Part shown: in pieces, positions 4,727-64,000 of the stretch | Layout: each line of letters opens with the position of its first letter | Numbering within the stretch: position 1 is the stretch's first letter | Assembly (NCBI GenBank): GCA_944329355.1 | Contig: CALVID010000002.1 | Coordinates: 2,928-66,927, forward strand | DNA: 64,000 nt | From: an uncultured Bacilli bacterium | GTDB lineage: Bacteria > Bacillota_I > Bacilli_A > RF39 > UBA660 | Direction: 5' to 3' | Translations under genes and position numbers: made by a program | Notes under the pieces: model-generated | The model's database searches: none | What the model was told of the DNA's origin: nothing | The model's input: the letters and a program-made list of their open reading frames with translations, nothing else

Positions 4727-4746
4727 AAACTCCCCCTAGTCTATTT

Positions 4747-5506: not shown

Positions 5507-5657
5507 GTTTTCGAAATTGTTTCCAAATTATTTTCTCTTATTTTATAAGGTTTTCCAGAGGTTTTGGTAACATCTTTTTAAATTTTGGAAACAAAATGGA
5601 AACAAATCGACTATTTTTGTAATTTTTTAATTTTTGAAGCCCTTGCAAATCCTTATT

Positions 5658-25247: not shown

Positions 25248-25324
25248 TGGTCGGGAAGACAAGATTTGAACTTGCGATCTCTACGTCCCGAACGTAGCGC
25301 TTTACCAAACTAAGCTACTTCCCG
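25248..25324 (-). tRNA. tRNA-Pro (anticodon CGG)
   Basis: 77 nt, CGGGAAGTAGCTTAGTTTGGTAAAGCGCTACGTTCGGGACGTAGAGATCGCAAGTTCAAATCTTGTCTTCCCGACCA. It folds into a cloverleaf with a 7-bp acceptor stem, anticodon loop TTCGGGA, T-loop TTCAAAT and an encoded CCA. Confidence 0.93.
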
Positions 25325-40299: not shown

Positions 40300-40300
40300 T

Positions 40301-43900: not shown

Positions 43901-43918
43901 ATGACATAGATCTAAAAC
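40911..43918 (-). CRISPR. CRISPR array, leader-proximal block: 46 identical 36-bp repeats, 45 spacers (30-31 bp)
   Basis: Repeat starts were counted one by one from 40911 to 43883. All copies are identical to the consensus. Spacers are unique by eye. Confidence 0.98.
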
Positions 43919-44671: not shown

Positions 44672-44988
44672 AATACAATTAATTTATCTTCATTATTTAT
44701 AATTTTAGTTTTAGAATTACCAATAACATATTCAATACTTGCATATTGTTTTTCTGTAACTGTAAGCATTTGAATTATTCCTTTTGATGGTGCATTTTTT
44801 CTGACTCTATCTTCTAGAAAATTACTTTGTACATTGTTTAATGTTAATTTAGAATATACTGATTCTTGCATCATAATAAAACCTTCATTTATTAAAAATT
44901 TTCTAAACCTATTATAGTTTCTTTTGTCTTTTGAATATACATTTGGCAAATCAAAGAAAACAATTGTCCTCATTACTCTATCCCTCAT
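44668..44988 (-). CDS. cas2: CRISPR-associated endoribonuclease Cas2
   Basis: 106 aa. MRTIVFFDLP...RNYNRFRKFLINEGFIMMQESVYSK is a typical Cas2 ferredoxin-fold N-terminus. Confidence 0.92.
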   Translation of the reverse strand: MRDRVMRTIVFFDLPNVYSKDKRNYNRFRKFLINEGFIMMQESVYSKLTLNNVQSNFLEDRVRKNAPSKGIIQMLTVTEKQYASIEYVIGNSKTKIINNEDKLIVL

Positions 44989-45850
44989 AAAATATAAATT
45001 CCTTATATTCGTTATTTTCTTCTAAATATTGTAATGTATTTTTGGTATAAAAACTAATTATATCTTTTAATGAATAATTTTTATTACCATATTTAAATTT
45101 ATTGTTAAAAAGATTTACCAAGTTTAATTTATATTCAGTATTAAATGGTTTTTCTTTAGTATAATACACAAAATTATCTATAACCACTCTGAACGGCTCC
45201 ATCAAATCACACGCAAGATTAAATTTATTATATTCACTTTTATGATTTATTCCTATTTGTGTTAAATAACCATTAGCTACTATTTCTTTATTGAAATTTG
45301 AAAGCAAAATTGCATAACCATAATTTAGTTTAGCATTAATTTCATCATCAGCATTTCTAACAAATTTTTTAGTAAATAAAGAGTTAAAATATACTTTTGA
45401 GGCATGAGCTTCTCTATTTGTTTTGTCATTTTCTGTTACTTCATCAATGTATTTCATTAATAAATCTGAATTTTTAGAATGAATTTTTTTTAATAAAATC
45501 ATTTGATTCATAATTTTATTTTTTATAATTAATTGCCATAATTTACTTATTTTATCTTTATTCCACTTTGTTTGCTTTGATATTTTTTTGCTTGAATTAT
45601 AGCAAATTCCATATGGACTTAATTCAGCAAATGGATTATGTTTTTCATCACAAAATATAATATTGATTTTATTGGTTACCAATTCTTTTAAAAGATAGGT
45701 AGAGATAGATACTGAAATTGAATCTACTATTAAAGTATCTATCTCTGACAAGTGAATATAATTTTCGTCCATGTCATCTTTTACTACTAAAAATCTATTT
45801 TTATAGCTTATTTTATTTGCTTTACTTATTACTACTGTTCTAAAACTCAT
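44978..45850 (-). CDS. cas1: CRISPR-associated integrase Cas1 (type II)
   Basis: 290 aa. SFRTVVISKANKISYKNRFLVVK..., NYGYAILLSNFNKEIVANGYLTQIGINHKSEYNKFNLACDLMEPFR contains the conserved Cas1 H and E/D residues. Overlaps cas9 and cas2. Confidence 0.93.
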   Translation of the reverse strand: MSFRTVVISKANKISYKNRFLVVKDDMDENYIHLSEIDTLIVDSISVSISTYLLKELVTNKINIIFCDEKHNPFAELSPYGICYNSSKKISKQTKWNKDKISKLWQLIIKNKIMNQMILLKKIHSKNSDLLMKYIDEVTENDKTNREAHASKVYFNSLFTKKFVRNADDEINAKLNYGYAILLSNFNKEIVANGYLTQIGINHKSEYNKFNLACDLMEPFRVVIDNFVYYTKEKPFNTEYKLNLVNLFNNKFKYGNKNYSLKDIISFYTKNTLQYLEENNEYKEFIFYEG

Positions 45851-48800
45851 TTTCTACCTCATAAATTCCAGTTACTGATTTATTAATAATTATAGTATGG
45901 TTTATTGTTTTATTTTTTTTTCTTCCAAAAGCCATAGAATATTTAGAATTTAACTGTTTTAAATTAGCAGTTAAACTATTTGGTTTTAATAAATTAAACA
46001 TCTGCTTAATAATTATTTCTTTTTCGCTAGTTTCTAATGTATTTATATGATTTGTTTTAAACATTTCTTCCATATTTGGAATTAAATTTTCATATAATTT
46101 ATATTCTTTTTTTACTTTTTCCACAATATATAAAATTATTTCTGATAAGTTTTCACTATATTTGTTATCTATTTCATTTTCACTAATATTTAGTTTTTGT
46201 GCGAGTGCATCTGAATAAAATTTTTGATTATTTAATAGTTTGCTTAATGTATATTTCCATTTGTTTAGATGTTTAGCATCAATAATAAATTCTTTGGCAT
46301 TACATACTTCTACTTTATCGGTTGCTCCAACTAGATAACATATTTGTCCTTCCCAATTTAATAAGGCATTAAATGGTATTTTATCTTTAATTATTTCTAT
46401 TTTTGAATTTTTATCTAATTTTAATAAATCTTTTATGTAATCTATTTTTATTTGATTATCTTTTTTAGATTCTTTATCTATATAAATAGGAATACCGATC
46501 ATTTTTTGCTCTTCTTTTTCTTTTTTTGTATATTTTACTAATGCGGCATAACTTGGATTTTTACCACTATAAGAGCCATACATATTATAATCTAGTCCTT
46601 TATGAAGACTTGCACCTTTAGTACCTTTTTTAGACATATTTTGCTCAAAAAACTCACCAGTTCTGATTTCTACCTTTTTACTAATTAATCCATCAAAGTG
46701 GTATAGATTTTTGATGACTGTATTTACGAACTTACTACCTTCAACAAGAACTTCTCCTGTGTTTTTATCGTATAAGGTTATTGTTTCATCAACGTTATTA
46801 ATAACATATCCATATTTTTTATTATATTTATATGTTCCATTTTGATAATTTTTATAATTTTCCTCTTTTAACTGTGTGAAATCAATTTTATTTTTCTTTA
46901 AAAAGTAGGTTACATAATATCCTAAAGCAACAGCTAAATAAGCATCATGCATATGATGATAATCATTAATGTCACGGAATTTAAATATATCATATTTTTT
47001 TCTAAATTCACTTGATAGATTAGCTTTTAAATATATTACCTTACTATTTTTATAATAATTTTTTAATATATTAGCAACATGTTTTACTATTTGACTGGTT
47101 TCAACAATTTGTCTATTGATAAATCCTTCAATATCTTCATCACTATAACTAGATCTTTTTAGTCTGTTTATTTTTTTATCTGTCATTAATCCACATTTTT
47201 TTAAATGATTCCACCAAACAAAATTGATTTCATTGCGAAACTGCTTTGGCAAGACAAAATTAGCAGCTTTTATTTGATTTTCTTCTTTTAATACTAGGGC
47301 TTTGTTATCAATAGAATCATCTTTAATTAATGTTCTAGGTATAATATGATCTACTTCGTAAAAGCTTAAATTATTAATGTCTAATGTTTTTCCAGAATAG
47401 AGACTTTTACCTTCTTGTAAGAAATACAAATATAATTTTTCATCATTAAATTCTTTTTCTTCTGCTTTTTCTGCTTGTTTAATTAAATAGTCATAGTTAT
47501 TTAAAGATGTTTTTTGTGTTTTATACCAATTTAATATTTTTTCTTTCCTACTTACTTTTCTTCCATCTTTTCTATTTTCTCTTGTCATTTCTATCATAAT
47601 ATTTTCTGGTTCATATCCTATATATTTTACTATTTCATCTACTACTTTTAATGCTTGATAAATACCTCTTTTATTGGCTGGTGAGGTTGCTAGTTCTGAT
47701 ACTACTAAATAATCTAATTTACTATTATCTTGCACTTTATTATAATCATCTATCATTTTTTGGAAGTTATATTTATCATTATTAATAATTTGCATAAAAT
47801 TCTCTTGAGTTGTTTCTAATAAATCCATTATTGATTTATTTTGCATCTCTTCTTTGTCTATATAATATTTGGTTGTTAGTAATTCTTTGGAAAGTCTACT
47901 CCATCCTTTATATTTTTTAGATAAAATTTTCTTTATTTGTTCATCTGATAATTCTTGATAATTTTGTCTTATTTTTCTTTCTAATATTTTATTATCTTCA
48001 AAAATGGTACGCCATTCTATAAGCGTTTCTGCTTGGTTAAGGTTATAGTTTGTGTTTTCAAATATTCCGTTTGGTCCAAAGAAATCGTAATATGATTTCA
48101 TGTTATTGGCAAACTTTTTATCGGCACTATATCCACTAATTTCTGGTGTATCTGAAGAAATAAATAATTCTGAAGCTTTAATATAGTTTTTAAATTTTTT
48201 ATCTGTTATGTTTTCGTTTGTTTTTAAAAATAAGTTTTTGTATATATCTTGAATTTGCTCTGTTATTAATCTATGACCATTTATTTTTATTTGTTTTAGT
48301 TCATTCAATACTTTAAACTTTGAATATAATATTGAATTTGCTGGTATGGCTGGTTTGCCTATTAAATATGTGCATGTTGAAATCATCCTTTTTATAAAGG
48401 CTTCAGCTGATTTATCTAAATCTACTACTTTTTCAAAATTATATGGAGTTATTCTTTCATTACTTTTTCTTACTAACCAATAATTAGGATTTTGAATTTC
48501 TTTATTATTTGTTGTTTGTCCAAGTGGACCTACATAATATGGAATTCTAAATGTTAATAGCTTTTCTATTTTGTATACATTACCCACATTTTCTTTTATA
48601 AATGGATAATATTTTCCTTGATTTTCAATTATTTGTAATAGTTCTGATTTGTGTAATTGATATGGATATTTTCCATTATCGGCATCTGTTATTCTAGGCA
48701 TAAAATCATCATTGGATATTCTTTTTAATGTTTCTGAATATTTATTACTTTCATTTGGATCTATACTGTTTTCTATTGCTTTTTGTATTATATTCATGAA

Positions 48801-49895
48801 TTCGTGCTGGGAAAGTTTGTTTTTTAAATATTGGTCATATAGACAAGTATATTTATCTTTTGTTCTAAAAATTTTATTATATTCTTTTCTATTATTTCTT
48901 AATATTTCTTTTAGTATTTTTAGATCATTTTCGTGTGCTTTATATTTTGATACCATTAGTTTTGATATTGATGTATGCTCTTCTCCTTTAAATAGTTCTT
49001 TTAAGAAAACCATATCATATAACTCTTTGATACTTTCTAAAATTTCTATATTTTCACTTAAATTTTCTGAAAGTTTGTCAAAATTATCTTCGTAATTACT
49101 ACCTTTAAAGGTTACAGATAATTTTTCTTCTGACTCTATTTGAAATAACTTGTTTAAATCTGCTTTATTTCCAATCATTAATTTGGTGAATTCGTTTGTA
49201 AATTCTTTTGATGTATGATTTTTTAATAATTCTTTTATTTTTAATTCTTTATCTTTTTTTGAGACTTCTAAAAAAGAGTGTGCTAGTGAACTATAGTCTA
49301 TCCTATTTATATTGTCTATATCTAAACCTAAATTTCCTTGCGTAGCTATGTTTTCGAATATTTCTTTTAATTTTTTTTCAATATTTAAATCATTTACATT
49401 GAAATCTCCTGTGTATAAAAAATTACCACGATTTTTTAAGATATGATGAATACCTAAATATAATAATCTAATATCCATTTTTTCTTTATTTTCCATGAGC
49501 GCTACTCTTAAATGATAGATGGTTGGATATTTTTCATTATATTTTTTTATTAGTTCTTTTTCTTCTTTGGTGATTTTAATAGTTTTATTTTTTAAATCCT
49601 TTTCATTATAAAATGTTTCTTGCATCTTTTTGAAAAAATTTGGATCTACTTTGTTTATTTCATTATTAAATATTTCTCTTAATAATTTAATGCGTTCTCT
49701 TCTTCTATCTAATCTTCTTCTATTACTTCTGAATAGTCTTCTATCGGCAGCAGTTTTGGCTTCTTCAAATAGACGAACACCCCATAGCTTTTTGCCTCCT
49801 TTTCTAATTATATTAAAATTATCTGAACGAACTACGGCCCATCCTACTGAATTTGTTCCAATATCTAATCCGATATTATATTTTGTTTCTTGCAT
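45840..49895 (-). CDS. cas9: Cas9 endonuclease (type II-A, 1351 aa)
   Basis: RuvC-I YNIGLDIGTNSVGWAVV, arginine-rich bridge helix RRLFRSNRRRLDRRRERI, HNH YEVDHIIPRTLIKDDSIDNKALV, RuvC-III DYHHMHDAYLAVALG. RBS AAAGGAG is present. Confidence 0.98.
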   Translation of the reverse strand: MQETKYNIGLDIGTNSVGWAVVRSDNFNIIRKGGKKLWGVRLFEEAKTAADRRLFRSNRRRLDRRRERIKLLREIFNNEINKVDPNFFKKMQETFYNEKDLKNKTIKITKEEKELIKKYNEKYPTIYHLRVALMENKEKMDIRLLYLGIHHILKNRGNFLYTGDFNVNDLNIEKKLKEIFENIATQGNLGLDIDNINRIDYSSLAHSFLEVSKKDKELKIKELLKNHTSKEFTNEFTKLMIGNKADLNKLFQIESEEKLSVTFKGSNYEDNFDKLSENLSENIEILESIKELYDMVFLKELFKGEEHTSISKLMVSKYKAHENDLKILKEILRNNRKEYNKIFRTKDKYTCLYDQYLKNKLSQHEFMNIIQKAIENSIDPNESNKYSETLKRISNDDFMPRITDADNGKYPYQLHKSELLQIIENQGKYYPFIKENVGNVYKIEKLLTFRIPYYVGPLGQTTNNKEIQNPNYWLVRKSNERITPYNFEKVVDLDKSAEAFIKRMISTCTYLIGKPAIPANSILYSKFKVLNELKQIKINGHRLITEQIQDIYKNLFLKTNENITDKKFKNYIKASELFISSDTPEISGYSADKKFANNMKSYYDFFGPNGIFENTNYNLNQAETLIEWRTIFEDNKILERKIRQNYQELSDEQIKKILSKKYKGWSRLSKELLTTKYYIDKEEMQNKSIMDLLETTQENFMQIINNDKYNFQKMIDDYNKVQDNSKLDYLVVSELATSPANKRGIYQALKVVDEIVKYIGYEPENIMIEMTRENRKDGRKVSRKEKILNWYKTQKTSLNNYDYLIKQAEKAEEKEFNDEKLYLYFLQEGKSLYSGKTLDINNLSFYEVDHIIPRTLIKDDSIDNKALVLKEENQIKAANFVLPKQFRNEINFVWWNHLKKCGLMTDKKINRLKRSSYSDEDIEGFINRQIVETSQIVKHVANILKNYYKNSKVIYLKANLSSEFRKKYDIFKFRDINDYHHMHDAYLAVALGYYVTYFLKKNKIDFTQLKEENYKNYQNGTYKYNKKYGYVINNVDETITLYDKNTGEVLVEGSKFVNTVIKNLYHFDGLISKKVEIRTGEFFEQNMSKKGTKGASLHKGLDYNMYGSYSGKNPSYAALVKYTKKEKEEQKMIGIPIYIDKESKKDNQIKIDYIKDLLKLDKNSKIEIIKDKIPFNALLNWEGQICYLVGATDKVEVCNAKEFIIDAKHLNKWKYTLSKLLNNQKFYSDALAQKLNISENEIDNKYSENLSEIILYIVEKVKKEYKLYENLIPNMEEMFKTNHINTLETSEKEIIIKQMFNLLKPNSLTANLKQLNSKYSMAFGRKKNKTINHTIIINKSVTGIYEVENEF

Positions 49896-51189: not shown

Positions 51190-52212
51190 TTAATTTGTAA
51201 AATGACCAAATTTTGCTTTTTCTTCATAACATGTATTATATAAGTTTAAATCTTTTATTATATTTTTTGGTGTGCATTCATCATATAAATTTTCTTTAAC
51301 TTCTATATTTCCTTTATCACTATCTATATATATTGCAAGTGGCTTATCTAGCCCAATAGCATAACTTATTTGAACTTGACACCATTTTAAGTTATATTTC
51401 TTTAAATATTCTTTTGCTATTTCTCTGGCTTTATAAGCTCCTGATCTATCTACTTTGCTTGGATCTTTACCGCTGAATGCTCCTCCACCTACTTTAGCAA
51501 ATGAATGATAACTATCAACAATTATTTTTCTTCCGGTTAATCCTGCATCACCATCAAATCCACCTATTAAAAATTTACCTGTTGGATTAATCAAGAACTT
51601 TTCTATTTCTATGTTATATCTTTTACATATTTCTATACATTTTTCTTTAATTAAATTATCAGTATAATCTCTATGTTTTTCATCATTTTGATATGATACT
51701 GTGAAGTATTTTATTTTCTTTAATTTCATATTTTCATCATAATAACCCGTTATTTGTGCTTTACCATCTGGAAGTAAATATGGACATTTTTGTCTTTCTT
51801 CGTCATACCATTTACTTAATTTTTGTAAAATTACTTGGGCAAGTGGTAACATTTCTTCTGTATCATCACATGCATAACCAAACATCATTCCTTGATCCCC
51901 AGCTCCGCCTACTTTATCATTTGTGCCAAGGGCAATATCTGGACTTTGTTTTCCTAAATTATTTATTATTTCGTAGTTTGCTGTATAGCCTATATCTTTT
52001 AAGACTCTATCGACTATATTATTTGTGTTAATATGGGCAGATGTGGTTACTTCTCCTGTAATAAATATTTTTCCTTTTCCTCCCATAACTTCGATACCAC
52101 ATCTAGAGTGTTTATCTTCTTTTAAGTATGCATCTAACAGTGCATCACTTATTTGGTCACAGACTTTATCTGGGTGACCACGAAATACGATTTCGTTTGA
52201 ATATAATTTCAT
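51190..52212 (-). CDS. metK: S-adenosylmethionine synthetase (compact, 340 aa)
   Basis: GHPDKVCDQISDA, GAGDQGMMFGYA, DGKAQIT, INPTGKFLIGGFDGDAGLTGRKIIVDSY and GGGAFSGKDPSKVDRSGAY are all canonical MetK motifs. Confidence 0.93.
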   Translation of the reverse strand: MKLYSNEIVFRGHPDKVCDQISDALLDAYLKEDKHSRCGIEVMGGKGKIFITGEVTTSAHINTNNIVDRVLKDIGYTANYEIINNLGKQSPDIALGTNDKVGGAGDQGMMFGYACDDTEEMLPLAQVILQKLSKWYDEERQKCPYLLPDGKAQITGYYDENMKLKKIKYFTVSYQNDEKHRDYTDNLIKEKCIEICKRYNIEIEKFLINPTGKFLIGGFDGDAGLTGRKIIVDSYHSFAKVGGGAFSGKDPSKVDRSGAYKAREIAKEYLKKYNLKWCQVQISYAIGLDKPLAIYIDSDKGNIEVKENLYDECTPKNIIKDLNLYNTCYEEKAKFGHFTN

Positions 52213-52235: not shown

Positions 52236-52352
52236 AAGAAAAAAACAAGTGAGGAACTTGCTTATAGTTCCTTATCGTCCGGCTTTAGCACCTAACTTAA
52301 ATAGGTTGCTGTGATTTCATAGGGCCAGTCCCTCCATCACTCTTTATAAGGT
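52236..52352 (-). promoter_or_regulatory. SAM-I (S-box) riboswitch with expression-platform terminator
   Basis: Minus-sense CCTTATAAAGAGTGATGGAGGGACTGGCCCTATGAAATCACAGCAACC...GGTGCTAAAGCCGGACGATAAGG matches the S-box core. It is followed by the hairpin AAGCAAGT-tcctc-ACTTGTTT and a T-run, directly upstream of metK. Confidence 0.9.
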
Positions 52353-55052: not shown

Positions 55053-57776
55053 TCAAATATTCAATTTTCTTTTTAAAATAGATATATCTCTAGAATTCTT
55101 TCGCTTTTTAATTTGTTCAAATATTCTTTGTTGACTTTCAGGGCTCCAAAATATTTGTAAATATTTCTTTGCCCTAGTAATAGCTGTATATAATATATTT
55201 TTTGTAATTTTATCTTCAACATTAGAAGTGATTATAATCTTTACTGACTCGTATTCTAATCCTTGTGCCTTATGAATTGAAACTGCATATGCTAAATTGA
55301 ATGGAATAATATGATCATATTCACTCTCGTCATCATTTGTATCTTTAAAATTATTTACAAAAAATTTTATTAAAGTTTTATTGTCGGTAATTTCAATCAC
55401 TTCATAATTAATAGGAGTATCCAGCAAGACTTCATCTACTAAAATAGTAAACCATACTCTATCATTTTCGTTATCTATTTCTATATTTTTTATCTTACCC
55501 TTTAAATTGTTATATAAATTTTTAAATCTAGGACAATCATTAAAAACTATAGGATCATCCACTTTAAACAAATCAACTCCAACATTATATTCTTTATTTA
55601 AGTTTTTTTCTTGTAGTATTCTATTTATATTATTAATTCCATATAATCCATCATAATTTAAACATAAAATTATTTCATCATCACTTATTCTTTTAAAAAT
55701 ATTCTCATCTATAGGTGATGAGTACTCTTTATTGCTTATTTTATTTATTGCATGATCATCATCATCTCTAACTAATTTCCATAATTCAAGCAAATCATGA
55801 TCTTCCGTTCTATTAGTTTCAATTAGTTCATATACAAACTCATCTTTAAATAAATTATATGTTAAAAACGTCCAATTTCCATATTTAATGGATTCTATCT
55901 GATATATGTCTCCAGATAGTATAATTAATTTATATTTTTGCTTATTTAATATTTTTTGCATTTCATCATCACTAATTGTACTACATTCGTCTATTATTAA
56001 AATATCGTAAATATTATCATCGTTTTTATTATAATGTGTAGTTGTTTCAAAGATTGAATTTTCATTATCATAATTTATAATTCTTCTTCGCAAGTTTTCT
56101 ACTGCAGTATTTGTATTTGATAAAAAAATTTTACTATAATCTTTAAAAACAGTGGCAACAACTTCAAGCATTTTAGTTTTACCGGTTCCAGCTGGTCCAT
56201 GAATAAAAGCAATTGAATTTTCTCTAAATATTACGTCAAAAATTTTTATCTTATCTTCGGTTAAATCAGAAATAGGATAATTCAATATATTGTTTTTAAT
56301 ACTTTCAATCATATCATCGGATGGTTTTATCATGTATTTCTTTATTTCTTTTATTATATTAATAGAATTAGTTTCATAAGAATTAATATATAATAAACCG
56401 TGTTCTATTTTAATTGAATTTCTTCCTATTTTATCTATTCCGTAGTTTAATAAATCCAAATTATATTGTTTAACCAACTTGTCTACATTTCCAAATTTTT
56501 CAACCTCCGCTACATCAGTATAAAGGATATTATTATTTTCTGAATTATCTTTTATATATTTTCCTAACATTTCATGCTCTCTACCACTACTATCTATTGA
56601 ATTTACCAAGTGAATCCAGCTAGTATTATGCTTATATAAAGCCATAGCATACGGCATCGAATCAAATGGAATACTTTGATTTTTTAAATATAAATTTCCG
56701 AATTTTTCATTTGAAGTATAATCAAGTTGATCTTTTATAATATTATTTTCCATTTTAACTAATAAATATTTTAAAATATTATTACCCGGCAAATTAGCCC
56801 CTAACCTTTTATGTAACAATTCTAATATATTTGAAACATTGTTATTCTTAGCATTTAATCTAATTTCTTTTAAATACCCCTCATATTTTTTATCATCATT
56901 CGTTAATAATTCTAATAAATTTAGCTCATTTTCTTTTAAAATTCTCATTAAATTAGTATATTCCATATATTCATCAGTAATATTGCAAGTCATACCAAAA
57001 ATTTTACCTATATTTTTTATCTCACATGGTCTTATAGAAATAACATAATTATCTATTACCTTAACTTTAGACTTATAAGAAAATAATTCAACTTCTTTTT
57101 CAATATATGATAATTTAATTGAATAATTGTCTGGGATATAATACTTCGAATACATTAAAATATGTTCGAACTTATTAACATAATTAGTTGCTTTAGACAA
57201 AGTTAATTCATAGTACAATTTCCCGAATGCATAAATAGGTCTACATTTATTAACATAAAATCTGCCACGCTTTAAAGATTTATTAGTTTTATCTTGAACT
57301 TCTTCTATTTTTTTACATATTTTTTGGTAATGCTCTTTTGTCATATTATCTTCATAAATTGGAAAATCCTCTAATTTATGAAGAACTTTTAATGAACACT
57401 CACCTTCTAAAGTTTCTTTAAGCATACATAAATATCCAAAATAATATAACATAAGTCTTTCTGCATCATTTTCACTAGGAGTATAATGTGATACTGTTGA
57501 CTGCAAAAAATGATGAAATTTTTGAATATACTTATATTTTTTAATACCCATGATATAATCCATCGAAGGCTTGACGTTATCATAATGACAATCTAATTCT
57601 AGTCCATTTTCTTTATTATTAATTAAAATAGCAATATCTTCTGTTAAATTTCTTAGTTGTGCTAAAATATTTTCAGATAATAACCCTCTATCGTTTAATA
57701 CTTTATGAGCTACTATATTTTTATCTATAACATTACATATATATTTAATTTCCACTTCTGGTTTTATTCTACCCAT
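55053..57776 (-). CDS. 907-aa fusion: unknown ~520-aa N-terminal region + RecD/Pif1-like SF1 helicase
   Basis: The C-terminal ~384 aa carry FIHGPAGTGKTKM (Walker A), ILIIDECSTISD (Walker B), ILSGDIYQIESI, an SH3-like VDDPIVFNDC...NNLKGKI, AYAVSIHKAQGLEYESV and LYTAITRAKKYLQIF. The N-terminal region has no motif I recognise. It is its own transcription unit, with a terminator upstream at 57910-57936. Confidence 0.75.
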   Translation of the reverse strand: MGRIKPEVEIKYICNVIDKNIVAHKVLNDRGLLSENILAQLRNLTEDIAILINNKENGLELDCHYDNVKPSMDYIMGIKKYKYIQKFHHFLQSTVSHYTPSENDAERLMLYYFGYLCMLKETLEGECSLKVLHKLEDFPIYEDNMTKEHYQKICKKIEEVQDKTNKSLKRGRFYVNKCRPIYAFGKLYYELTLSKATNYVNKFEHILMYSKYYIPDNYSIKLSYIEKEVELFSYKSKVKVIDNYVISIRPCEIKNIGKIFGMTCNITDEYMEYTNLMRILKENELNLLELLTNDDKKYEGYLKEIRLNAKNNNVSNILELLHKRLGANLPGNNILKYLLVKMENNIIKDQLDYTSNEKFGNLYLKNQSIPFDSMPYAMALYKHNTSWIHLVNSIDSSGREHEMLGKYIKDNSENNNILYTDVAEVEKFGNVDKLVKQYNLDLLNYGIDKIGRNSIKIEHGLLYINSYETNSINIIKEIKKYMIKPSDDMIESIKNNILNYPISDLTEDKIKIFDVIFRENSIAFIHGPAGTGKTKMLEVVATVFKDYSKIFLSNTNTAVENLRRRIINYDNENSIFETTTHYNKNDDNIYDILIIDECSTISDDEMQKILNKQKYKLIILSGDIYQIESIKYGNWTFLTYNLFKDEFVYELIETNRTEDHDLLELWKLVRDDDDHAINKISNKEYSSPIDENIFKRISDDEIILCLNYDGLYGINNINRILQEKNLNKEYNVGVDLFKVDDPIVFNDCPRFKNLYNNLKGKIKNIEIDNENDRVWFTILVDEVLLDTPINYEVIEITDNKTLIKFFVNNFKDTNDDESEYDHIIPFNLAYAVSIHKAQGLEYESVKIIITSNVEDKITKNILYTAITRAKKYLQIFWSPESQQRIFEQIKKRKNSRDISILKRKLNI

Positions 57777-58078: not shown

Positions 58079-60376
58079 TTATTTGAATAAATTATCAAAA
58101 TTTTCCCACAACTCTGGAGCATCATTATAAGTTTTATATGTTGCTTGTTGATAGTATTTAAATGTATTATTATCTTTAATTACTAATCCTCCGATTAAGT
58201 TTTTGCCTTTAAATCTTTCCTCTGTTATATACTTATATAGTGCATTAGATTTAATCGTATCATCTGCAACAAATTGACCGCCTTTAGTATCAAATATACC
58301 AATACTTCCATCTTTAAACTTTATTATGAAATCTGGTTGAAATGTGCTTTTATCTTCTTTTTGAATACCAAAATTTGTTTTCATATGTTCTGCTCCATTT
58401 TTCCAAAACCATTCAATTTTATCTTCATGCTTATCTAAATAATTTATAAAATCTAATTCTAATTGGTCAACTTTTCCAGATTTTAATTCCATAAATAATG
58501 GTTGATATAGTGATAATTTTGAATCAATAATTGTATTAGTTTCTGGATTATAATTTTTAGTAGGTTCAATTTCCCAATTATCATTAAATTCTTCATCACT
58601 TTTTGCAGATACTTCAATTTCATGAATTGGTTTATATGAAGAAGTAGATTTATTTAATAAATCGCTAAAAATAGACTCGTTAGTTACTATCATATTCTGA
58701 ATATACATAATTCCACCACGAGCAGACTCCAAACCCAAATATTTTTTAAAAGTATATAGTATTGCTTGCTTTATAGTAGGTATAGATCTTTTTGGTGCAA
58801 AGCCATTTAAATTAGAACTAATTATTTTATTATATTTTGCACTCAAGTCTGATGGACTGATACCAACTTTTATTAACGAATCACTGGTATCAATCTTTAA
58901 ATCTTTATCAACATTTTCGCTTTTTATTGTTATATCATTTACTATATTATCAATTCTGTCATATTCAGTATTTATTCCAGCATTTCGTAATGCTTCCATA
59001 TTTGTGTAATAATCAGTTAATTCATTTTCATTTACTAATTGTTTGATTTTAAAATATTTACAAAATTCATGTTCAAAAACTTTATAAAAAGAAGTTGTAA
59101 CATCACCGAAATCAACTCTATTTTTGTAATATGATTTCAATGCTATTGGAGTATATATTTCTCTTCTTTTAGAACATAAAGATTTTATTATATTTGGATT
59201 ATATACTTCTTTTTTTATTGCAATGGATTGAATATTTGTATAGACATAAGATTTATTTAAAGTTTCATCTGAGTAATGCTTTGCTTCTGGCATTCGTAAA
59301 ATCCTACCAACTGTTTGGATTTCAAAAACTATACTATTAGATTCTCTAAACTTAATCAAAATTTGGGCTCTAGGACAATCCCAACCAGTATCTATTGCTT
59401 GTTTAAAAATTAAATACTGTACTATACCATTATTATCTAATAATTTATCTGATTCATTATTAATTTTTTCATCTGATAACCATACTGCTAATTTTCCATT
59501 TTCTTCTGTAATTCCTTTTTCATTTAAAAACTTAATAACCGATTCTTTTTTATCATCACCTGCAGTAGAGTTAGGTAATTGAATTAACACTAAAGGATTT
59601 ACCATTGTATTTTGTTCTTTATACTTTAATGCTAATTCGTTCCTTTTTTGAAATGCACTTTCTAAAATTAATTGTTCAGAGTCCATTTCATCATCAACAA
59701 TCTTTTCTATATCTTGATTTATAATTATTTCTTTTTTTATCATACCCTCATCTATAACTTTAATAGGATCAACAATAACTCTTGCTTGCATATCATCGAT
59801 TAAAACTGGTGTAGCACTCATTTCAATAGTTAAATCTGGAACTATTATTTCATCTCTAATTTCCTTAGCACGACTAGTAGTAGCACCAGCATGAGATTCA
59901 TCAATAATAAGAACTATTTGTCTTCCTATCTCATGAGTATTTTTTAGAACTTCTGGAAAATTTATCGTCTCTTTATCTTTCATTAAAGTGTTTTTGAACT
60001 CACCAGTTTTTTTATCCTTAGTTCTAATCTTTTCCCAATTAATAAATACAACTTCATTTTGATTAATTATAAATTTGCTTCCAAAAAATTCGCTTTCAAT
60101 CAATGTACAAGTTAAAGTTTCATCAATTTCTCTTTTTACACTTTTCATACTTTGCTTGTGTAAATCACCTTTGCCTATGCTAATCCATAAAAAACATAAA
60201 TCTCTTTCACTAGAATTAACCAATTCTAACATATAGCTTGCTATTGTAAAAGTTTTACCACTACCAGTAGGTGCTTGAAATACAATAGTTTCTTTCCCAT
60301 CTCTCTTAAAGTATAAATTAGAGTAAGTTAGTAATTCTTCTATTGCTAATTCTTGATATTTTTTTAATTGCTTCAT
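58079..60376 (-). CDS. res: type III restriction enzyme Res subunit (SF2 helicase + C-terminal PD-(D/E)xK)
   Basis: FQAPTGSGKTF (motif I), LIIDESHAG (motif II), QTVGRILR (motif VI), and the C-terminal FQPDFIIKF...GIFDTKGG, a PD...D-x-K nuclease motif. It starts 2 nt after the mod stop. Confidence 0.85.
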   Translation of the reverse strand: MKQLKKYQELAIEELLTYSNLYFKRDGKETIVFQAPTGSGKTFTIASYMLELVNSSERDLCFLWISIGKGDLHKQSMKSVKREIDETLTCTLIESEFFGSKFIINQNEVVFINWEKIRTKDKKTGEFKNTLMKDKETINFPEVLKNTHEIGRQIVLIIDESHAGATTSRAKEIRDEIIVPDLTIEMSATPVLIDDMQARVIVDPIKVIDEGMIKKEIIINQDIEKIVDDEMDSEQLILESAFQKRNELALKYKEQNTMVNPLVLIQLPNSTAGDDKKESVIKFLNEKGITEENGKLAVWLSDEKINNESDKLLDNNGIVQYLIFKQAIDTGWDCPRAQILIKFRESNSIVFEIQTVGRILRMPEAKHYSDETLNKSYVYTNIQSIAIKKEVYNPNIIKSLCSKRREIYTPIALKSYYKNRVDFGDVTTSFYKVFEHEFCKYFKIKQLVNENELTDYYTNMEALRNAGINTEYDRIDNIVNDITIKSENVDKDLKIDTSDSLIKVGISPSDLSAKYNKIISSNLNGFAPKRSIPTIKQAILYTFKKYLGLESARGGIMYIQNMIVTNESIFSDLLNKSTSSYKPIHEIEVSAKSDEEFNDNWEIEPTKNYNPETNTIIDSKLSLYQPLFMELKSGKVDQLELDFINYLDKHEDKIEWFWKNGAEHMKTNFGIQKEDKSTFQPDFIIKFKDGSIGIFDTKGGQFVADDTIKSNALYKYITEERFKGKNLIGGLVIKDNNTFKYYQQATYKTYNDAPELWENFDNLFK

Positions 60377-60378
60377 TA

Positions 60379-62163
60379 TTAATCCTCCTTACTCATTTTC
60401 ACAACTTTTTTATATAGTTCAACTATTTTATATGGGATGGACTCTATGGTATAATTACTGACATCCTTTAAGTTACTAGTATCTACATAATTACCAAGTG
60501 TGAATATATATAAAAGTTTTTCTTCCTTAATGTCTTTTATTGTATTTATAAAATCATTATATTTTAAACCAAATATATCAAAATAAACACAAGTGTATTT
60601 TGTTTTATTATGATTAGTAAATATAGCATATTCATTATTAGAAACTACTTTATCAAAAGTATTTCCTTTAACACACAACATTGGAATACATTTTTCAGTA
60701 AGATCATAATACAATTGATCTCTAGTACCTATATTTTTCACAAATTCAGTTTTATAATATCTTAATATTGCATTTCTTCCTTCAGAATATTTCGAACCAT
60801 CTTTTCTTTTCCCAGTAATAACTACTGCACACCTTGGATATGTAACTTTTTCACAAATTCCATTTTCGTTATTTGTACATAAAATAAAACTTCTATTTCC
60901 GCCATCCTCTTTATTCAAATCTAATATTGCTTGTGCAGTAGTACCAGATCCAGCAAAAAAATCCAAAATAATAGCATTTTTATTGTCTATTAAAGAAATT
61001 AATAATTTTAATAATCCAACATTTTTAGGATTATCAAAAGGAGTTGCCGATACTCCGAAAATATTTTTTAACTCTGTTCCTGCCGATGTTGTTTTAACAT
61101 CTATTTGATAATCTTTAACTACTTTATTATTAACTACTGCATCATATTTTCTGTTTGTAACCATGCTTTTAATTCTAATTGTTGTACTAAAATTTTTTTC
61201 ATATATTTTATTATTTTTAAAATCCAAAGCATTTTTTTTGTATAATTCATTTAATCTGTTTTGTGAATATGTATTTAATACAAAATCTTTTCCGTTATAT
61301 GAACAAAATCTTTCAAACCCCTCATCAATTAGTTTCTTATCAATATCATTAACAGATTGTTCCTTTTTAAATTTTATTTTATTATCACTTTTTCTATAAT
61401 ATACTGTATAATGTTTATCCGAATCAAAGTTTATTACTGGGTCATTAAAACTTTGCTCTCCCACTAATATTCTTCTTCCACCACTATGCACATAATTGCC
61501 ATTTTCATCTTGTATTAAGTCAGTGGTTGACTTTGGTATATTTTCTATAAAGTATGTAGAATTCTTATCCTTTGCATATATCAAACAATATTCATTGCTT
61601 ATTGAAACAAAATTTGAATTTTTCCTACCTTTAGGATTATTTTCAATAGATAACATTGCAATATAATTATTTTCGCCAAATATTTTATCACATAATAGTT
61701 TTAGTTGGGCAAATTCATTATCATCAATAGACACAAATATTACCCCAGTTTCTTTCAGTAGTTGTCTGGCTAATTTCAATCTCTTTTCCATGAAATTTAA
61801 CCATTTACTATGCCTATATCCATCTTCAAGATCTATAAATTTATCATTATATATAAAATCCTTTTTTCCAGTATTATATGGTGGGTCTATATAAATTATG
61901 TCAATTTTTTCTTTATGGGTATAATTTAGAACACTTAAAGAATGAAAATTATCTCCTTCAATTAAAATATTTTCTTGACCCCCGTTATTAATATTTTTAT
62001 CTTTGACTTCTCTTAAAACAGGAATATATTTATCACAATCAACAACAATTTGTTCTGGTTCTTTTTCTTTGTCCCAAACAAGTCCATATTTGCCATTTTC
62101 ATTTTCACTTAAATTTTTAATATATTCTATTAATTCTTCTTTTGACATTTTGTAAAAGTCCAT
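60379..62163 (-). CDS. mod: type III R-M Mod subunit (beta-class N6A/N4C DNA methyltransferase)
   Basis: IIYIDPPYNTGKK (motif IV) lies N-terminal to FFAGSGTTAQA (motif I), which is the beta-class order seen in type III Mod proteins. RBS GGGGAGGA is present. Confidence 0.88.
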   Translation of the reverse strand: MDFYKMSKEELIEYIKNLSENENGKYGLVWDKEKEPEQIVVDCDKYIPVLREVKDKNINNGGQENILIEGDNFHSLSVLNYTHKEKIDIIYIDPPYNTGKKDFIYNDKFIDLEDGYRHSKWLNFMEKRLKLARQLLKETGVIFVSIDDNEFAQLKLLCDKIFGENNYIAMLSIENNPKGRKNSNFVSISNEYCLIYAKDKNSTYFIENIPKSTTDLIQDENGNYVHSGGRRILVGEQSFNDPVINFDSDKHYTVYYRKSDNKIKFKKEQSVNDIDKKLIDEGFERFCSYNGKDFVLNTYSQNRLNELYKKNALDFKNNKIYEKNFSTTIRIKSMVTNRKYDAVVNNKVVKDYQIDVKTTSAGTELKNIFGVSATPFDNPKNVGLLKLLISLIDNKNAIILDFFAGSGTTAQAILDLNKEDGGNRSFILCTNNENGICEKVTYPRCAVVITGKRKDGSKYSEGRNAILRYYKTEFVKNIGTRDQLYYDLTEKCIPMLCVKGNTFDKVVSNNEYAIFTNHNKTKYTCVYFDIFGLKYNDFINTIKDIKEEKLLYIFTLGNYVDTSNLKDVSNYTIESIPYKIVELYKKVVKMSKED

Positions 62164-62285
62164 TATGTCATCCTCCCCGTAATCATGTAATATAGTTCTA
62201 TTTGATTATACTATATTTTTTAATAAAATCCCAGCACTTAGAACTATTTATACAATGAAAAGTGCAAATTTTATCTTATCATATC

Positions 62286-63569
62286 TTAAATTTGTATATT
62301 GATATATTTCTCAATTTCTTGTGCAAATTTAAAGAGCATACGATCATATTCTTTTTTGTAACTATTAGTGAAAAATATAGGTGATAATTCTAAGTATCTA
62401 TAAATTTCTCCAGAATTAATTTTATCTTTAAATTCTTTATAATACTGTATTAAAGATTGCTTTTCTAAATATTTATATTGTGAAATTAAAAGACATTTAT
62501 CTGTCCTTTCTCCATATTTCTTTTCGTAGTCAATTATTGAATTTAACAAAGAGATATTTAAAGGTAAGATATAGCGGTCATCATATTTTGATTTACTAGA
62601 GTTTACCATACCAATTTGTCTCAATATACAAGCTGTACAAATTCCACATTGACATATTCCAGAATTTTTTCTATTATGAAAAGCTTTTGATCCTGGCATT
62701 TTAGAGCAAGTTTTTGTATTGGATATTAAAGCATTCCATGATTTTGGTATTAAATCGATTACCTCAGCCTTAGTTAAAAAGTTAAATGGGTTCACTATTT
62801 TTATATTAATATCCAATTTTTTTAAAATTGTATTTATTATATATAAAGTTCTTGGATGTGTAGTATGTGTCACTCTTCTTCTAAATGAAAAAGTAGGATT
62901 TAAACTCATGATACCATTTTCATAAATCTTTACTTCACTAACTTTATAATAATCAGCATATAAAAAAGTTGAAGCAAGAAATATTAGTGATCGTGTCCTT
63001 TGGGTTGATTGTTTTTTTCTGTTAAATAAAAGTTTAGGAATACTTATATGATAAGAATTAGGATTAAGTTTTAAAATTTCTTTAAATGACTGTGTTGCTT
63101 TATTGCCTTCTACCTTATTTGTTTTAAATGTAACAAACAATACGTTATTGCCAAGTTCTTGAGAGGCTCCAGCCAAAGCATCCAACCCTCCAGATAGCAA
63201 CACTATACTGTTTATTTTTTTCTCAAAACTCACTTGGGCATTCGATATATTTATTCCTTGCTTATTTTTTTTATAAAAATTTATATTCCAGGTTTCTCCG
63301 TTTGTCATAAATGTAATCAGTCTTTCTAAATCTGGTTTTATTTTTTTAAATAGTTCTGGATTAGTTACTCCTATATTTAACTCAATTTGATTAAACTCAT
63401 CTTCATTTCTAGGAGAATAAAAATCACAATAACAAATAGATGCAAAAGTATCAAATAAATCTAAAATATTCATGTTTTTATAATTAAAAATATTGTCTAA
63501 AAGATTATCTTTATTATAATGTAATTCATAAGGATTTTTTGAAGATAGTAAATTAAAATTATTTATCAT
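62286..63569 (-). CDS. QueC-like PP-loop ATPase with N-terminal extension (QatC-like)
   Basis: PP-loop IVLLSGGLDALAG (SGGxD) and a C-terminal Cys cluster CSKMPG...CQCGICTACILRQ resembling the QueC zinc site CGxCxxC. 427 aa versus about 220 aa for housekeeping QueC. The start overlaps the upstream stop (TAATG). Confidence 0.7.
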   Translation of the reverse strand: MINNFNLLSSKNPYELHYNKDNLLDNIFNYKNMNILDLFDTFASICYCDFYSPRNEDEFNQIELNIGVTNPELFKKIKPDLERLITFMTNGETWNINFYKKNKQGINISNAQVSFEKKINSIVLLSGGLDALAGASQELGNNVLFVTFKTNKVEGNKATQSFKEILKLNPNSYHISIPKLLFNRKKQSTQRTRSLIFLASTFLYADYYKVSEVKIYENGIMSLNPTFSFRRRVTHTTHPRTLYIINTILKKLDINIKIVNPFNFLTKAEVIDLIPKSWNALISNTKTCSKMPGSKAFHNRKNSGICQCGICTACILRQIGMVNSSKSKYDDRYILPLNISLLNSIIDYEKKYGERTDKCLLISQYKYLEKQSLIQYYKEFKDKINSGEIYRYLELSPIFFTNSYKKEYDRMLFKFAQEIEKYINIQI

Positions 63570-64000
63570 TATATCACTACCCCTTCAAGGATTTCATTAA
63601 TTGCTGAATTAGACCAATTTGTAATAAATTCGTCATCATTATAATTGATAACTAATTGATTAACTTTTTCTGGTGTAATAATTTTATTTGTAGTAACCGA
63701 AATTATAGCTGACAATAATTCATAAAAATTCTTATCCGTGAATTCTTCATTCCTTTCAGCAAATTCTTCAACAAGGTTCCCTTGTATAGATCTTTCTAGA
63801 TGTTTTTTAAATATTTCTATAATAAGTGTTGTAGTATTATTGAATGTTCCATCTATACCATTAGCATATATAATATCTTTAATTGATTGCTTTAGTTCAG
63901 GATACTCTGATTTTACAATATGATCAGCAATTAAATCAACTTGTTCATCAAAAGAATAATTATTAAATCCAGGAATGGCAAACCCGACAACCCCAGAAGA
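63569..64000 (-). CDS. hypothetical protein (5' end beyond window); translationally coupled partner of the QueC-like gene
   Basis: Minus-strand frame is open from base 64000: SSGVVGFAIPGFNNYSFDEQVDLIADHIVKSEYPELKQ...NSAINEILEGVVI, with stop TAA 63571-63569 overlapping the downstream ATG. Not in the ORF track because no start lies in the window. No motif recognised. Confidence 0.6.
   Translation of the reverse strand, partial: SSGVVGFAIPGFNNYSFDEQVDLIADHIVKSEYPELKQSIKDIIYANGIDGTFNNTTTLIIEIFKKHLERSIQGNLVEEFAERNEEFTDKNFYELLSAIISVTTNKIITPEKVNQLVINYNDDEFITNWSNSAINEILEGVVI

What the first reader, a model, noticed from the sequence alone, without database searches (positions are those of the whole stretch)
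62286..64000. QueC-like (QatC-like) PP-loop protein coupled to an unknown partner and followed by type III R-M instead of TatD
The 427-aa protein has the QueC signatures: PP-loop LLSGGLDALAG and a C-terminal Cys cluster CQCGICTAC. It also carries a ~115-aa N-terminal extension, so it is not the housekeeping preQ0 enzyme. Its ATG overlaps the stop of an upstream ORF (TAATG) whose 5' end lies outside the window.

QueC-like proteins are known components of the Qat defence system (QatA ATPase, QatB, QatC QueC-like, QatD TatD nuclease) and of type IV CBASS. Here, however, the gene downstream of the QueC-like ORF is not a TatD-like nuclease. After a 122-bp gap come mod and res.

Three readings are possible. 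It may be a Qat variant lacking QatD. It may be a different QueC-based module. Or there may be a functional link between a deazaguanine-type modification enzyme and the adjacent restriction system.
Basis: partly seen in the sequence, partly recalled or inferred. Interest (0 to 1): 0.65.

Follow-up and report, generated by a model that had tools for sequence, protein, structure and literature searches.

The report
Minimal QatBC defence module with DUF4238
The gene is a diverged member of the QatC anti-phage family paired with a short QatB-like partner; the usual QatA and QatD genes are missing and a DUF4238 gene just outside the window always travels with the pair, while the neighbouring type III restriction system looks like an ordinary defence-island neighbour.

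Summary
A 427-aa ORF (62286-63569, minus strand) carries the PP-loop and Cys cluster. Its ATG overlaps the stop of a cut upstream ORF, and mod/res follow after 122 bp.

The protein is a diverged QatC. It scores PADLOC QatC 5e-38, but NCBIfam QatC 154.8 bits, below the 280-bit cutoff. Its model matches the QatC crystal structure over its full length (TM 0.68).

In identical contigs the cut partner is 219 aa and starts MGTSTR, the essential N-terminal motif of QatB. Its model finds QatB as the top PDB hit (TM 0.55), but no QatB sequence profile detects it.

There is no QatA or QatD in the window or in 10 kb beyond it. In every relative with at least 54% QatC identity whose upstream flank is on the contig, a divergently transcribed DUF4238 gene lies 74-82 bp upstream. 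It co-diverges with QatC (r=0.965). More distant clades carry an unknown ~205-aa gene or QatD in that role.

Downstream genes vary among lineages: three unrelated type III R-M alleles, a DpnII R-M, helicases, or nothing. A specific Qat/type III link is therefore not supported.

Verdict: an undescribed natural QatBC-core variant, probably a three-gene system with DUF4238, in a gut Bacilli defence island. Its chemistry and the role of DUF4238 are inferred, not shown.

The parts
62286..63569 (-). QatC-like protein (QatC'), 427 aa: N-terminal domain (~1-120), QueC-type PP-loop core (SGGLDA 126-131, RTRSLIF 191-197, ENG 217-219, THTTHP 234-239, PFNFLTK 261-267, Zn site C288/C308/C311/C314) and a helical C-terminal extension (~340-427)
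   Evidence: PADLOC QatC 5e-38. NCBIfam NF041925 QatC 3e-45, 154.8 bits, below the 280-bit cutoff. PDB QatC chains 9zee_B 7.7e-18 and 9vlk_A 2.9e-15. AlphaFold model pLDDT 90; best Foldseek hit is QatC 9y01_B, E 1.6e-15, TM 0.68 over 427 columns. Motifs mapped. dN/dS 0.09 against a 97%-identical copy.
63569..64000 (-). C-terminal 143 codons of the QatB-like partner (QatB'). The full gene is 219 aa. Its start (MGTSTRKK...) would lie at about window position 64228, outside the window
   Evidence: Four contigs with an identical QatC' give the full gene (translation). An MG[TS]S[TVK]R N-terminus with a Shine-Dalgarno sequence is present in all 17 loci inspected. Model pLDDT 82; the top two PDB hits are QatB chains 9y01_A and 9y02_A, prob 1.00, TM 0.55-0.57, while the next best TM is <=0.22. 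The stop overlaps the QatC' ATG by 1 nt.
62164..62285 (-). 122-bp spacer between the QatC' stop and the mod start. It contains a TATAAT about 40 nt before the mod ATG and a GGGGAGGA ribosome-binding site. No intrinsic terminator was detected
   Evidence: Sequence. The consensus scans found no terminator, and promoter-like hits were no more frequent than in shuffled sequence. Co-transcription with mod can therefore be neither shown nor excluded.
60379..62163 (-). Type III R-M methyltransferase (Mod), 594 aa. It is an adjacent gene and is judged NOT to be part of the Qat-like module
   Evidence: PADLOC MTase_III 4.7e-91; Pfam N6_N4_Mtase 3e-36. It is only 48-49% identical to the Mod in the otherwise 96-97%-identical islands L005/L023, and 35% identical to the Mod in L029.
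58079..60376 (-). Type III R-M restriction subunit (Res), 765 aa. It is an adjacent gene and is judged NOT to be part of the module
   Evidence: PADLOC REase_III 6e-19; Pfam ResIII 2.5e-17. It is 58% identical to the Res of L023.

Best explanation
The locus is a diverged, reduced member of the Qat anti-phage family. It has a translationally coupled QatB'-QatC' pair and no QatA (KAP NTPase) or QatD (TatD nuclease).

Inferred mechanism, by analogy with P. aeruginosa and E. coli QatBC. In those systems the pair alone protects against some phages, and both the QatB Gly2 and the QatC PP-loop are essential.
- QatC' binds QatB' in a 1:1 complex.
- QatC' binds ATP at its PP-loop.
- The flexible N-terminus of QatB' (Gly2, exposed after Met removal) enters the QatC' active site.
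- An ATP-dependent N-terminal modification follows, related to Cap9 deazaguanylation. The adduct has not been identified even in the model systems.

The third gene. In this clade the conserved third gene is a DUF4238 gene transcribed divergently from a 74-82-bp promoter region. It would lie at about window positions 64311-65321, outside the window. It most likely takes the accessory or effector role that QatD, or an unknown 205-aa protein, has in sister clades.

The neighbours. The type III R-M and the PDC-S53 helicase downstream are independent neighbours in a defence island that is bounded by recombinase and integrase genes.

What is shown and what is inferred.
- Shown here: homology, architecture, conservation, co-divergence and purifying selection.
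- Inferred: complex formation, the chemistry, anti-phage activity, and functional coupling to DUF4238 (my estimate for the coupling alone is about 0.6).
For: QatC identity: and a full-length structural match to QatC at TM 0.68. Seven of the published QatC-cluster motifs are present and the QueC catalytic motifs are absent (compared with PMC13329287).

QatB identity:
- N-terminus MGTSTR, matching the essential MGTS motif of QatB (PMC13279940).
- The motif is invariant in all 17 partners inspected.
- The best PDB fold matches are QatB.
- The same partner family sits in B'-C'-QatD operons, where the third gene scores PADLOC QatD 2e-42 and 4e-56.

Absence of QatA and QatD. Positive controls on canonical loci worked.

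The DUF4238 trio:
- Pfam PF14022, 90.8 bits.
- Present and divergent in every locus with >=54% QatC' identity whose upstream flank is on the contig.
- 6 of 6 loci retrieved with the DUF4238 query carry B'C' next door.
- Pairwise identities of DUF4238 and QatC' correlate at r=0.965, Mantel p=2e-4, as tightly as QatB' and QatC'.
- A conserved extended -10 element lies in the divergent spacer.
- dN/dS is 0.09-0.22 for all three genes.

Sufficiency of QatBC: experimentally shown for other members (PMC13279940, PMC13434339).

Independence of the R-M.
Against: - Nothing was tested experimentally for this clade.
- The PP-loop reads SGGLDA, whereas SGGxDS is reported as strictly conserved in QatC. Sister members of the same family do have Ser.
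- The NCBIfam QatC score is well below the equivalog cutoff.
- QatB' has no significant sequence-level link to canonical QatB. PADLOC and NCBIfam QatB models give no hit. hhalign probability is 10%. A profile search of 1.84 billion representatives found only 48 clusters, all about 205-227 aa.
- The predicted disordered N-terminal tail is much shorter than the 30-90 aa described for QatB.
- A DUF4238 protein is a stand-alone anti-T7 defence gene in E. coli (PMC9122126). The trio could therefore be two autonomous systems that travel together.
- No terminator was found between QatC' and mod.
Confidence: 0.75

Rival explanations
1. There are two independent defence systems side by side: an autonomous two-gene QatB'C' module, and an autonomous single-gene DUF4238 system of the Rst_DUF4238 type. 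They are co-inherited as a compact cassette and do not cooperate biochemically.
For: QatBC alone protects against lambda-vir and P1 in model systems (PMC13279940, PMC13434339). A lone DUF4238 protein protects E. coli against T7 (PMC9122126). The two units are transcribed divergently and are not in one operon.
Against: The adjacency persists while DUF4238 diverges to 28-38% identity and QatB' to 25-31%, and while all other neighbours turn over. Spacing is held at 74-82 bp. The third gene is mutually exclusive across clades: DUF4238, the 205-aa gene or QatD. All 6 DUF4238 relatives recovered independently had B'C' next door.
Confidence: 0.3
2. QatB'C' works together with the adjacent type III R-M. 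Examples would be a deazaguanine-type modification feeding into restriction, or the protein modification regulating Mod/Res.
For: A type III R-M lies directly downstream in the window, in L005/L023 and, after one extra gene, in L029. No terminator was detected in the 122-bp gap.
Against: The three type III cassettes are only 35-49% identical in Mod, and one was swapped inside an island that is otherwise 96-97% identical. Other lineages have DpnII R-M plus AIPR, a Sau3AI-like R-M on the opposite side, McrBC, helicases or non-defence genes. QatC-type active sites lack the CDG-recognition Tyr/Asp and do not complement queC (PMC13279940, PMC13329287), so a DNA-base precursor role is unlikely. No DpdA/TGT-type insertion enzyme is nearby.
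Confidence: 0.05
3. The module is a decaying remnant of a qatABCD system. It lost QatA and QatD, carries a PP-loop Ser-to-Ala change, and is no longer active in defence.
For: Two of four canonical genes are missing. SGGLDA replaces SGGxDS. A published survey found 98% of qat loci to be full qatABCD (PMC13434339).
Against: Strong purifying selection acts on all three genes: dN/dS 0.09-0.22, and 0.10-0.11 for a second pair. The intact architecture is kept across lineages down to 54% QatC' identity. All other catalytic and zinc motifs are invariant across the family. The family has 831 detectable homologues.
Confidence: 0.05

Closest known systems
qatABCD anti-phage system (Gao et al. 2020; QatBC structures 9Y01/9Y02, 9ZEE, 9VLK)
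   Same: - A QatC-type QueC-like protein with N- and C-terminal extensions, the TxTTHP loop and a Cys4 zinc site.
- An upstream, translationally coupled helical partner with an MG(T/S)S N-terminus.
- The QatBC pair is the experimentally defined minimal unit of the system.
   Different: - No QatA and no QatD.
- QatC' is only about 19-29% identical to canonical QatC and falls below the NCBIfam cutoff.
- QatB' is shorter (219 aa against about 250-300), has a short N-terminal tail, and is invisible to QatB sequence models.
- The PP-loop ends in Ala.
- A divergent DUF4238 gene is the conserved third component.
- The published survey of qat gene arrangements (PMC13434339) lists seven forms, and none includes DUF4238 or a bare BC pair.
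Type IV CBASS Cap9 (QueC-like) with Cap10 and a CD-NTase
   Same: A QueC-fold, ATP-dependent enzyme that takes the N-terminal glycine of a partner protein into its active site. The partner starts MGGS in CBASS and MGTS here.
   Different: - No CD-NTase, Cap10/TGT or effector is nearby.
- Cap9 is about 185 aa and keeps the canonical CDG-binding motifs, whereas QatC' is 427 aa and lacks them.
- The structural match covers the core only (9nto_B, TM 0.30 normalised to the query).
Rst_DUF4238 single-gene defence (Rousset et al. 2022)
   Same: A DUF4238 (PF14022) protein encoded in a defence hotspot.
   Different: Here the DUF4238 gene is strictly paired with QatB'C' and co-diverges with them. The P2-hotspot protein acts alone. 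Homology beyond the Pfam domain was not assessed.
Housekeeping QueC (preQ0 synthase)
   Same: PP-loop ATPase fold and a C-terminal Cys cluster (Pfam QueC, 28 bits, C-terminal part only).
   Different: The YxQxHxxE, VPxRN and YPDC motifs are absent. There is no TIGR00364 hit. The protein is twice the length. There are no que genes nearby.

Membership tests
QatC (QueC-like protein of Qat systems) | PP-loop SGGxDS ATP/pyrophosphate-binding motif (reported as strictly conserved; S156A/S161A abolishes defence in P. aeruginosa) | tested here: inconclusive
   Residues 126-131 read SGGLDA, so five of six positions are kept and the last Ser is Ala. Within the same family the position alternates between Ala and Ser. 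The effect of the single change is unknown.
QatC (QueC-like protein of Qat systems) | QatC-specific motifs: RxRxxxF/Y, ExG, invariant Thr pair plus HP, P(x)4TK, C(x)19CGxC zinc site, D(x)4R, D/ExWxxxF. Canonical QueC motifs absent. | tested here: met
   RTRSLIF 191, ENG 217, THTTHP 234-239, PFNFLTK 261, C288-x19-CGIC, DFYSPR 49 and ETWNINF 92 are all present. YxQxHxxE, VPxRN and YPDC are absent. The WxR part and the final RR of the published motifs are not present.
QatC (QueC-like protein of Qat systems) | N- and C-terminal extensions around the QueC core, with full-length similarity to solved QatC | tested here: met
   Foldseek against 9y01_B gives E 1.6e-15 and TM 0.68 over 427 columns. Cap9 matches the core only. 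phmmer against 9zee_B gives 7.7e-18 over residues 59-354.
QatC (QueC-like protein of Qat systems) | Score above the curated NCBIfam equivalog cutoff (NF041925, 280 bits) | tested here: not met
   154.8 bits. A canonical QatC control scores PADLOC 306 bits, against 129 bits here.
QatC (QueC-like protein of Qat systems) | ATP-dependent catalytic activity on the QatB N-terminus, required for defence | not testable with these tools
   This has not been reconstituted in vitro even for the model QatC proteins (PMC13279940, PMC13639016).
QatB | Extreme N-terminal MGTS motif with an essential Gly2 | tested here: met
   The N-terminus is MGTSTRKK in contigs with an identical QatC'. M1, G2, S4 and R6 are invariant in 15 aligned partners. 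The N-terminus itself lies outside the window.
QatB | All-helical globular domain of the QatB fold | tested here: met
   The model (pLDDT 82) has ten helices. The top two of 350,542 PDB chains are QatB 9y01_A and 9y02_A, prob 1.00, TM 0.55-0.57. The Foldseek E-values are only 0.017-0.05. The next best hit has TM <=0.22.
QatB | Detectable sequence homology to QatB profiles | tested here: not met
   PADLOC QatB and NCBIfam NF041924 give no hit, while a canonical control scores 89 and 98 bits. hhalign against four canonical QatB sequences gives probability 10%, E 0.003. The library-wide profile search did not reach canonical QatB.
QatB | Long disordered N-terminal tail (30-90 aa) | tested here: inconclusive
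   Only residues 1-10 have pLDDT below 50, and helices start at residues 12 and 29. The tail therefore appears shorter than in the model proteins.
qatABCD system | QatA KAP-family NTPase in the operon | tested here: not met
   A QatA HMM built from four canonical loci gives no hit in six-frame ORFs of the window or of L001. The canonical seed L052 scores PADLOC QatA 354 bits.
qatABCD system | QatD TatD-family nuclease in the operon | tested here: not met
   No TatD-like ORF occurs in the window or in L001. QatD is present only in relatives with <=40% QatC' identity.
qatABCD system | Adjacent, co-oriented qatB-qatC pair (the minimal functional unit) | tested here: met
   There is a 1-nt stop/start overlap. 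The pair is conserved in all loci examined.
Type IV CBASS (Cap9/Cap10) | Adjacent CD-NTase and TGT-like Cap10; a short Cap9 (about 185 aa) that retains the QueC motifs | tested here: not met
   The neighbours in L001 show no CD-NTase or TGT Pfam domains. The protein is 427 aa and lacks the motifs.
Housekeeping QueC | Catalytic motifs YxQxHxxE, VPxRN and YPDC; TIGR00364 equivalog; que-gene neighbourhood | tested here: not met
Rst_DUF4238-type defence gene (for the off-window third gene) | PF14022 DUF4238 domain covering the protein | tested here: met
   1.3e-25, 90.8 bits, profile positions 3-279 of 281. Autonomy and anti-phage activity cannot be tested here.

The most novel reading that the evidence does not exclude
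QatBC may be an exchangeable core whose role is to modify the partner's N-terminus, and evolution has wired it to alternative third components: QatD nuclease (with or without QatA), an unknown ~205-aa protein, or DUF4238. In the window's clade the DUF4238 protein would be the effector or sensor controlled by modified QatB'. That would give DUF4238 its first functional context and define a new three-gene Qat subtype that current detection tools do not recognise.
Probability: 0.4. Interest if true: 0.7.

Novelty: new variant of a known kind. Interest (0 to 1): 0.5.

Why it matters
How Qat systems work is an open question. [quoted passage not shown]

This clade and its sister clades are natural versions of the laboratory truncation: a QatBC core with no QatA, and with three mutually exclusive third genes. 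They offer compact alternative systems, with a short-tailed QatB and a small QatC, for reconstituting the chemistry.

The arrangement also suggests that the third gene is a swappable effector. It links DUF4238, whose mechanism is unknown, to a defined biochemical module.

Practically, the system probably escapes annotation. The partner and the DUF4238 gene gave no hit in the PADLOC library, and QatC' scores below the NCBIfam cutoff. Qat diversity in gut Firmicutes is therefore probably under-counted.

Tried and rejected
- Promoter and terminator scans of the QatC'-mod gap and of the divergent spacer were uninformative. Hits were no more frequent than in shuffles of this 25% GC DNA, and no terminator was found.
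- Sequence-level bridging of QatB' to canonical QatB failed:
  - phmmer and a profile search against the PDB gave only chance hits.
  - hhalign gave probability 10%.
  - The word-indexed profile search gave 100 hits, none named QatB.
  - The full HMMER scan of 1.84 billion representatives gave 48 clusters, all of the short form.
- DUF4238 has no solved-structure relative by sequence, no PADLOC or NCBIfam hit and only a marginal PHROG hit at E 0.0037. It has no relative on IMG/VR viral contigs. Its structure could not be predicted because the gene lies outside the window.
- The type IV CBASS and housekeeping QueC readings were rejected on neighbourhood and motifs.
The reverse association is therefore based on a small sample.
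Full report
**1. The observation**

The minus strand of 62286-63569 holds a 427-aa ORF. Its ATG shares one base with the TAA of an upstream ORF that runs off the window at 64000.

SGGLDA lies at residues 126-131 and CQCGICTAC at 306-314.

After a 122-bp gap come two genes:
- a 594-aa type III Mod (PADLOC MTase_III 4.7e-91; Pfam N6_N4_Mtase);
- a 765-aa type III Res (PADLOC REase_III 6e-19; Pfam ResIII).

A 907-aa PDC-S53 helicase follows (963 bits).

**2. The 427-aa protein**

It is a QatC-family protein and not housekeeping QueC.

Sequence evidence:
- PADLOC QatC 5e-38.
- NCBIfam QatC 3e-45, but 154.8 bits against a cutoff of 280.
- Pfam QueC only 28 bits, on the Cys-cluster region.
- The only solved relatives by sequence are QatC chains 9zee_B (7.7e-18) and 9vlk_A.

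Structure evidence. An AlphaFold model (pLDDT 90) matches the P. aeruginosa QatC crystal structure over its whole length: 9y01_B, E 1.6e-15, TM 0.68, 427 columns. Cap9 matches only the core. The '115-aa extension' is therefore the normal QatC N-terminal domain.

Motifs. Of the motifs that define the QatC cluster in PMC13329287, these are present: D(x)4R, ExWxxxF, RxRxxxF, ExG, the Thr pair plus HP (THTTHP), P(x)4TK and C(x)19CGxC. The QueC catalytic motifs are absent.

One deviation. The PP-loop ends in Ala rather than Ser. Within the family the position alternates between Ala and Ser.

**3. The partner**

The exact 427-aa protein occurs on eight public contigs, and four places were returned. 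There the upstream gene is 219 aa and begins MGTSTRKKIPRL. [quoted passage not shown]

Conservation of the pairing:
- In 19 loci from species-representative genomes, all gut Bacilli, Clostridia or other Bacillota MAGs, every inspectable QatC' is preceded by a 209-227-aa gene.
- That gene has a Shine-Dalgarno sequence and starts MG[TS]S[TVK]R.
- M1, G2, S4 and R6 are invariant.

Fold evidence. A model of the 94%-identical P0121 (pLDDT 82, ten helices) finds QatB chains 9y01_A and 9y02_A as the two best of 350,542 PDB chains. Probability is 1.00 and TM is 0.55-0.57. The next best hit has TM <=0.22. The Foldseek E-values are only 0.017-0.05.

Sequence evidence does not confirm the link:
- No PADLOC or NCBIfam QatB hit, although a canonical control scores.
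- hhalign probability 10%.
- A full HMMER scan of 1.84 billion representatives returns only 48 clusters, all short-form.

The same partner family also sits in B'-C'-QatD operons. I therefore call it a short, diverged QatB. That call rests on motif, fold, position and operon context, not on sequence statistics.

**4. What else belongs to the module**

No QatA-like or TatD-like ORF exists in any frame of the window or of L001.

Beyond the window, L001 shows in order: a divergently oriented 336-aa DUF4238 gene (PF14022, 90.8 bits), then a serine recombinase and a tyrosine integrase.

Tabulating all loci by identity to the window's QatC' gives a clean partition:

| QatC' identity to the window | Third gene |
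|---|---|
| >=54% | divergent DUF4238 upstream; nothing conserved downstream |
| 45-48%, plus one locus at 35% | unknown ~205-aa gene abutting the QatC' stop, with no hit in any library |
| <=40% | QatD downstream |
| <=29% | QatD downstream and QatA upstream |

The DUF4238 class:
- It covers at least eight lineages in different contexts.
- The spacer is held at 74-82 bp and contains a conserved TGnTAT(T/A)AT element.
- Six of six loci retrieved with the DUF4238 alignment carry B'C' next door.
- Pairwise identities of DUF4238 track those of QatC' (r=0.965, Mantel p=2e-4). This is as tight as QatB' against QatC' (r=0.927).
- All three genes are under purifying selection, with dN/dS 0.09-0.22.

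**5. The restriction system**

Downstream neighbours are not conserved:

| Locus | QatC' identity | Neighbours |
|---|---|---|
| L024 | 69% | DpnII-type R-M and AIPR |
| L034 | 65% | McrBC and NERD upstream, small genes downstream |
| L030 | 57% | convergent SLFN-like helicase |
| L006 | 57% | Sau3AI-like (MutH-domain) R-M on the DUF4238 side |
| L008 | 57% | AAA_21 ATPase |
| L029 | 66% | type III R-M after an extra gene |

The Mod of L029 is only 35% identical to the window's. In L005/L023, QatC' is 97% identical and PDC-S53 is 96% identical to the window's. Yet Mod is 48-49% identical and Res 58% identical, which is a cassette swap.

This is what defence islands look like. It gives no support to a specific Qat/type III coupling. 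Co-transcription in this particular locus cannot be excluded, because no terminator was found and the scans were uninformative.

The window is rich in defence genes generally. It also holds a type II-A CRISPR-Cas locus.

**6. Mechanism**

Established for other members:
- QatB and QatC form a 1:1 complex.
- The QatB N-terminus sits in the ATP-bound QatC active site.
- The PP-loop, the Thr pair, the zinc site and QatB Gly2 are essential.
- QatBC alone protects against some phages.
- The reaction product is still unknown (PMC13279940, PMC13639016, PMC13376578, PMC13434339).

Inferred here: QatC' and QatB' do the same, because the corresponding residues are conserved.

Further inferred, at about 0.6: DUF4238 occupies the accessory or effector slot that QatD holds in canonical systems. 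In those systems QatD is bound through QatB (PMC13639016). The main alternative is that DUF4238 is a co-travelling autonomous system, as a DUF4238 protein is in an E. coli P2 hotspot (PMC9122126).

**7. Comparison with what is known, and novelty**

The locus is filed as a diverged variant of the Qat family. It is not a qatABCD member, because the QatA and QatD features were tested and not met. It is not type IV CBASS or QueC.

What the held literature says:
- The survey of qat arrangements lists seven forms. 98% are full qatABCD and qatBCD is 0.32%. None includes a bare BC pair or DUF4238 (PMC13434339).
- PMC13329287 notes that only about 34% of QatC-cluster genes sit next to qatA or qatD. It does not describe what replaces them.
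- No paper in the library links DUF4238 with Qat.

I rate the finding a new variant of a known kind, of moderate interest. It is a natural minimal QatBC with swappable third genes, and it could help resolve the open Qat mechanism. Nothing here is experimentally shown for this clade.

Noticed in passing
window 39864-40307 and 40911-43918; 43994-49895 (-): Two CRISPR arrays share the 36-nt repeat GTTTTAGTACTATTTAAGATGACATAGATCTAAAAC, with period 66 and about 6.7 and 45.5 units. They lie next to Csn2 (43994-44671), Cas1 (44978-45850) and a 1351-aa Cas9 (45840-49895). This is a type II-A CRISPR-Cas locus about 12 kb from the Qat-like module.
   Followed up: partly
window 55053-57776 (-); L007, L023, L037, L043/L044: The 907-aa SF1 helicase matches PADLOC candidate PDC-S53 end to end (963 bits). 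Homologues at 41-96% identity recur within a few kb of QatB'C' modules in several other lineages, at varying distance and orientation. I did not test whether this reflects a shared island or a functional link.
   Followed up: partly
window 58079-62163 vs L005:3333-5126 and L023:814-4889: Two islands have 97%-identical QatC' and 96%-identical PDC-S53, but their type III mod and res genes are only 48-49% and 58% identical. A whole R-M cassette has been replaced at a fixed position.
   Followed up: partly
L050-L125 (IMG/VR viral contigs), e.g. L075:2946-3734 and 3724-5826: Many prophage-like contigs encode 600-730-aa proteins whose N-terminal half is QatC-like (NCBIfam QatC 209 bits, PADLOC 180 bits). 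Each is preceded by an overlapping ~262-aa gene that starts MGH[VI]RLGxLPR..W and has no family hit. This may be another QueC-family enzyme with an N-terminal-glycine partner.
   Followed up: partly
L012-L016, L018, L019, L037-L039 (e.g. L013:9280-9897): A conserved ~205-211-aa gene abuts the QatC' stop in the sister clade, where DUF4238 and QatD are absent. It has no hit in Pfam, PADLOC, PHROGs or NCBIfam.
   Followed up: partly
L001:9260-9341 and equivalents (would be about window 64229-64310, outside the window): The 74-82-bp spacer between the divergent DUF4238 and QatB' genes keeps a TGnTAT(T/A)AT extended -10 about 20-25 nt before the QatB' ribosome-binding site. A TATAnCAT element sits near the DUF4238 side. 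The same pattern holds in lineages that are only about 30% identical at protein level.
   Followed up: partly
window 52259-52352 (-) and 25251-25324 (-): A SAM riboswitch (70.8 bits) lies upstream of the 340-aa ORF at 51190-52212, and there is a single tRNA gene. G+C is about 25% throughout, with no compositional break at the defence island.
   Followed up: no
L001:3947-7869 (beyond the window end): A tyrosine integrase (468 aa) and a large serine recombinase (584 aa) lie just beyond the DUF4238 gene. The DUF4238-Qat-R-M-helicase block may therefore sit on an integrated mobile element. Its boundaries were not mapped.
   Followed up: no
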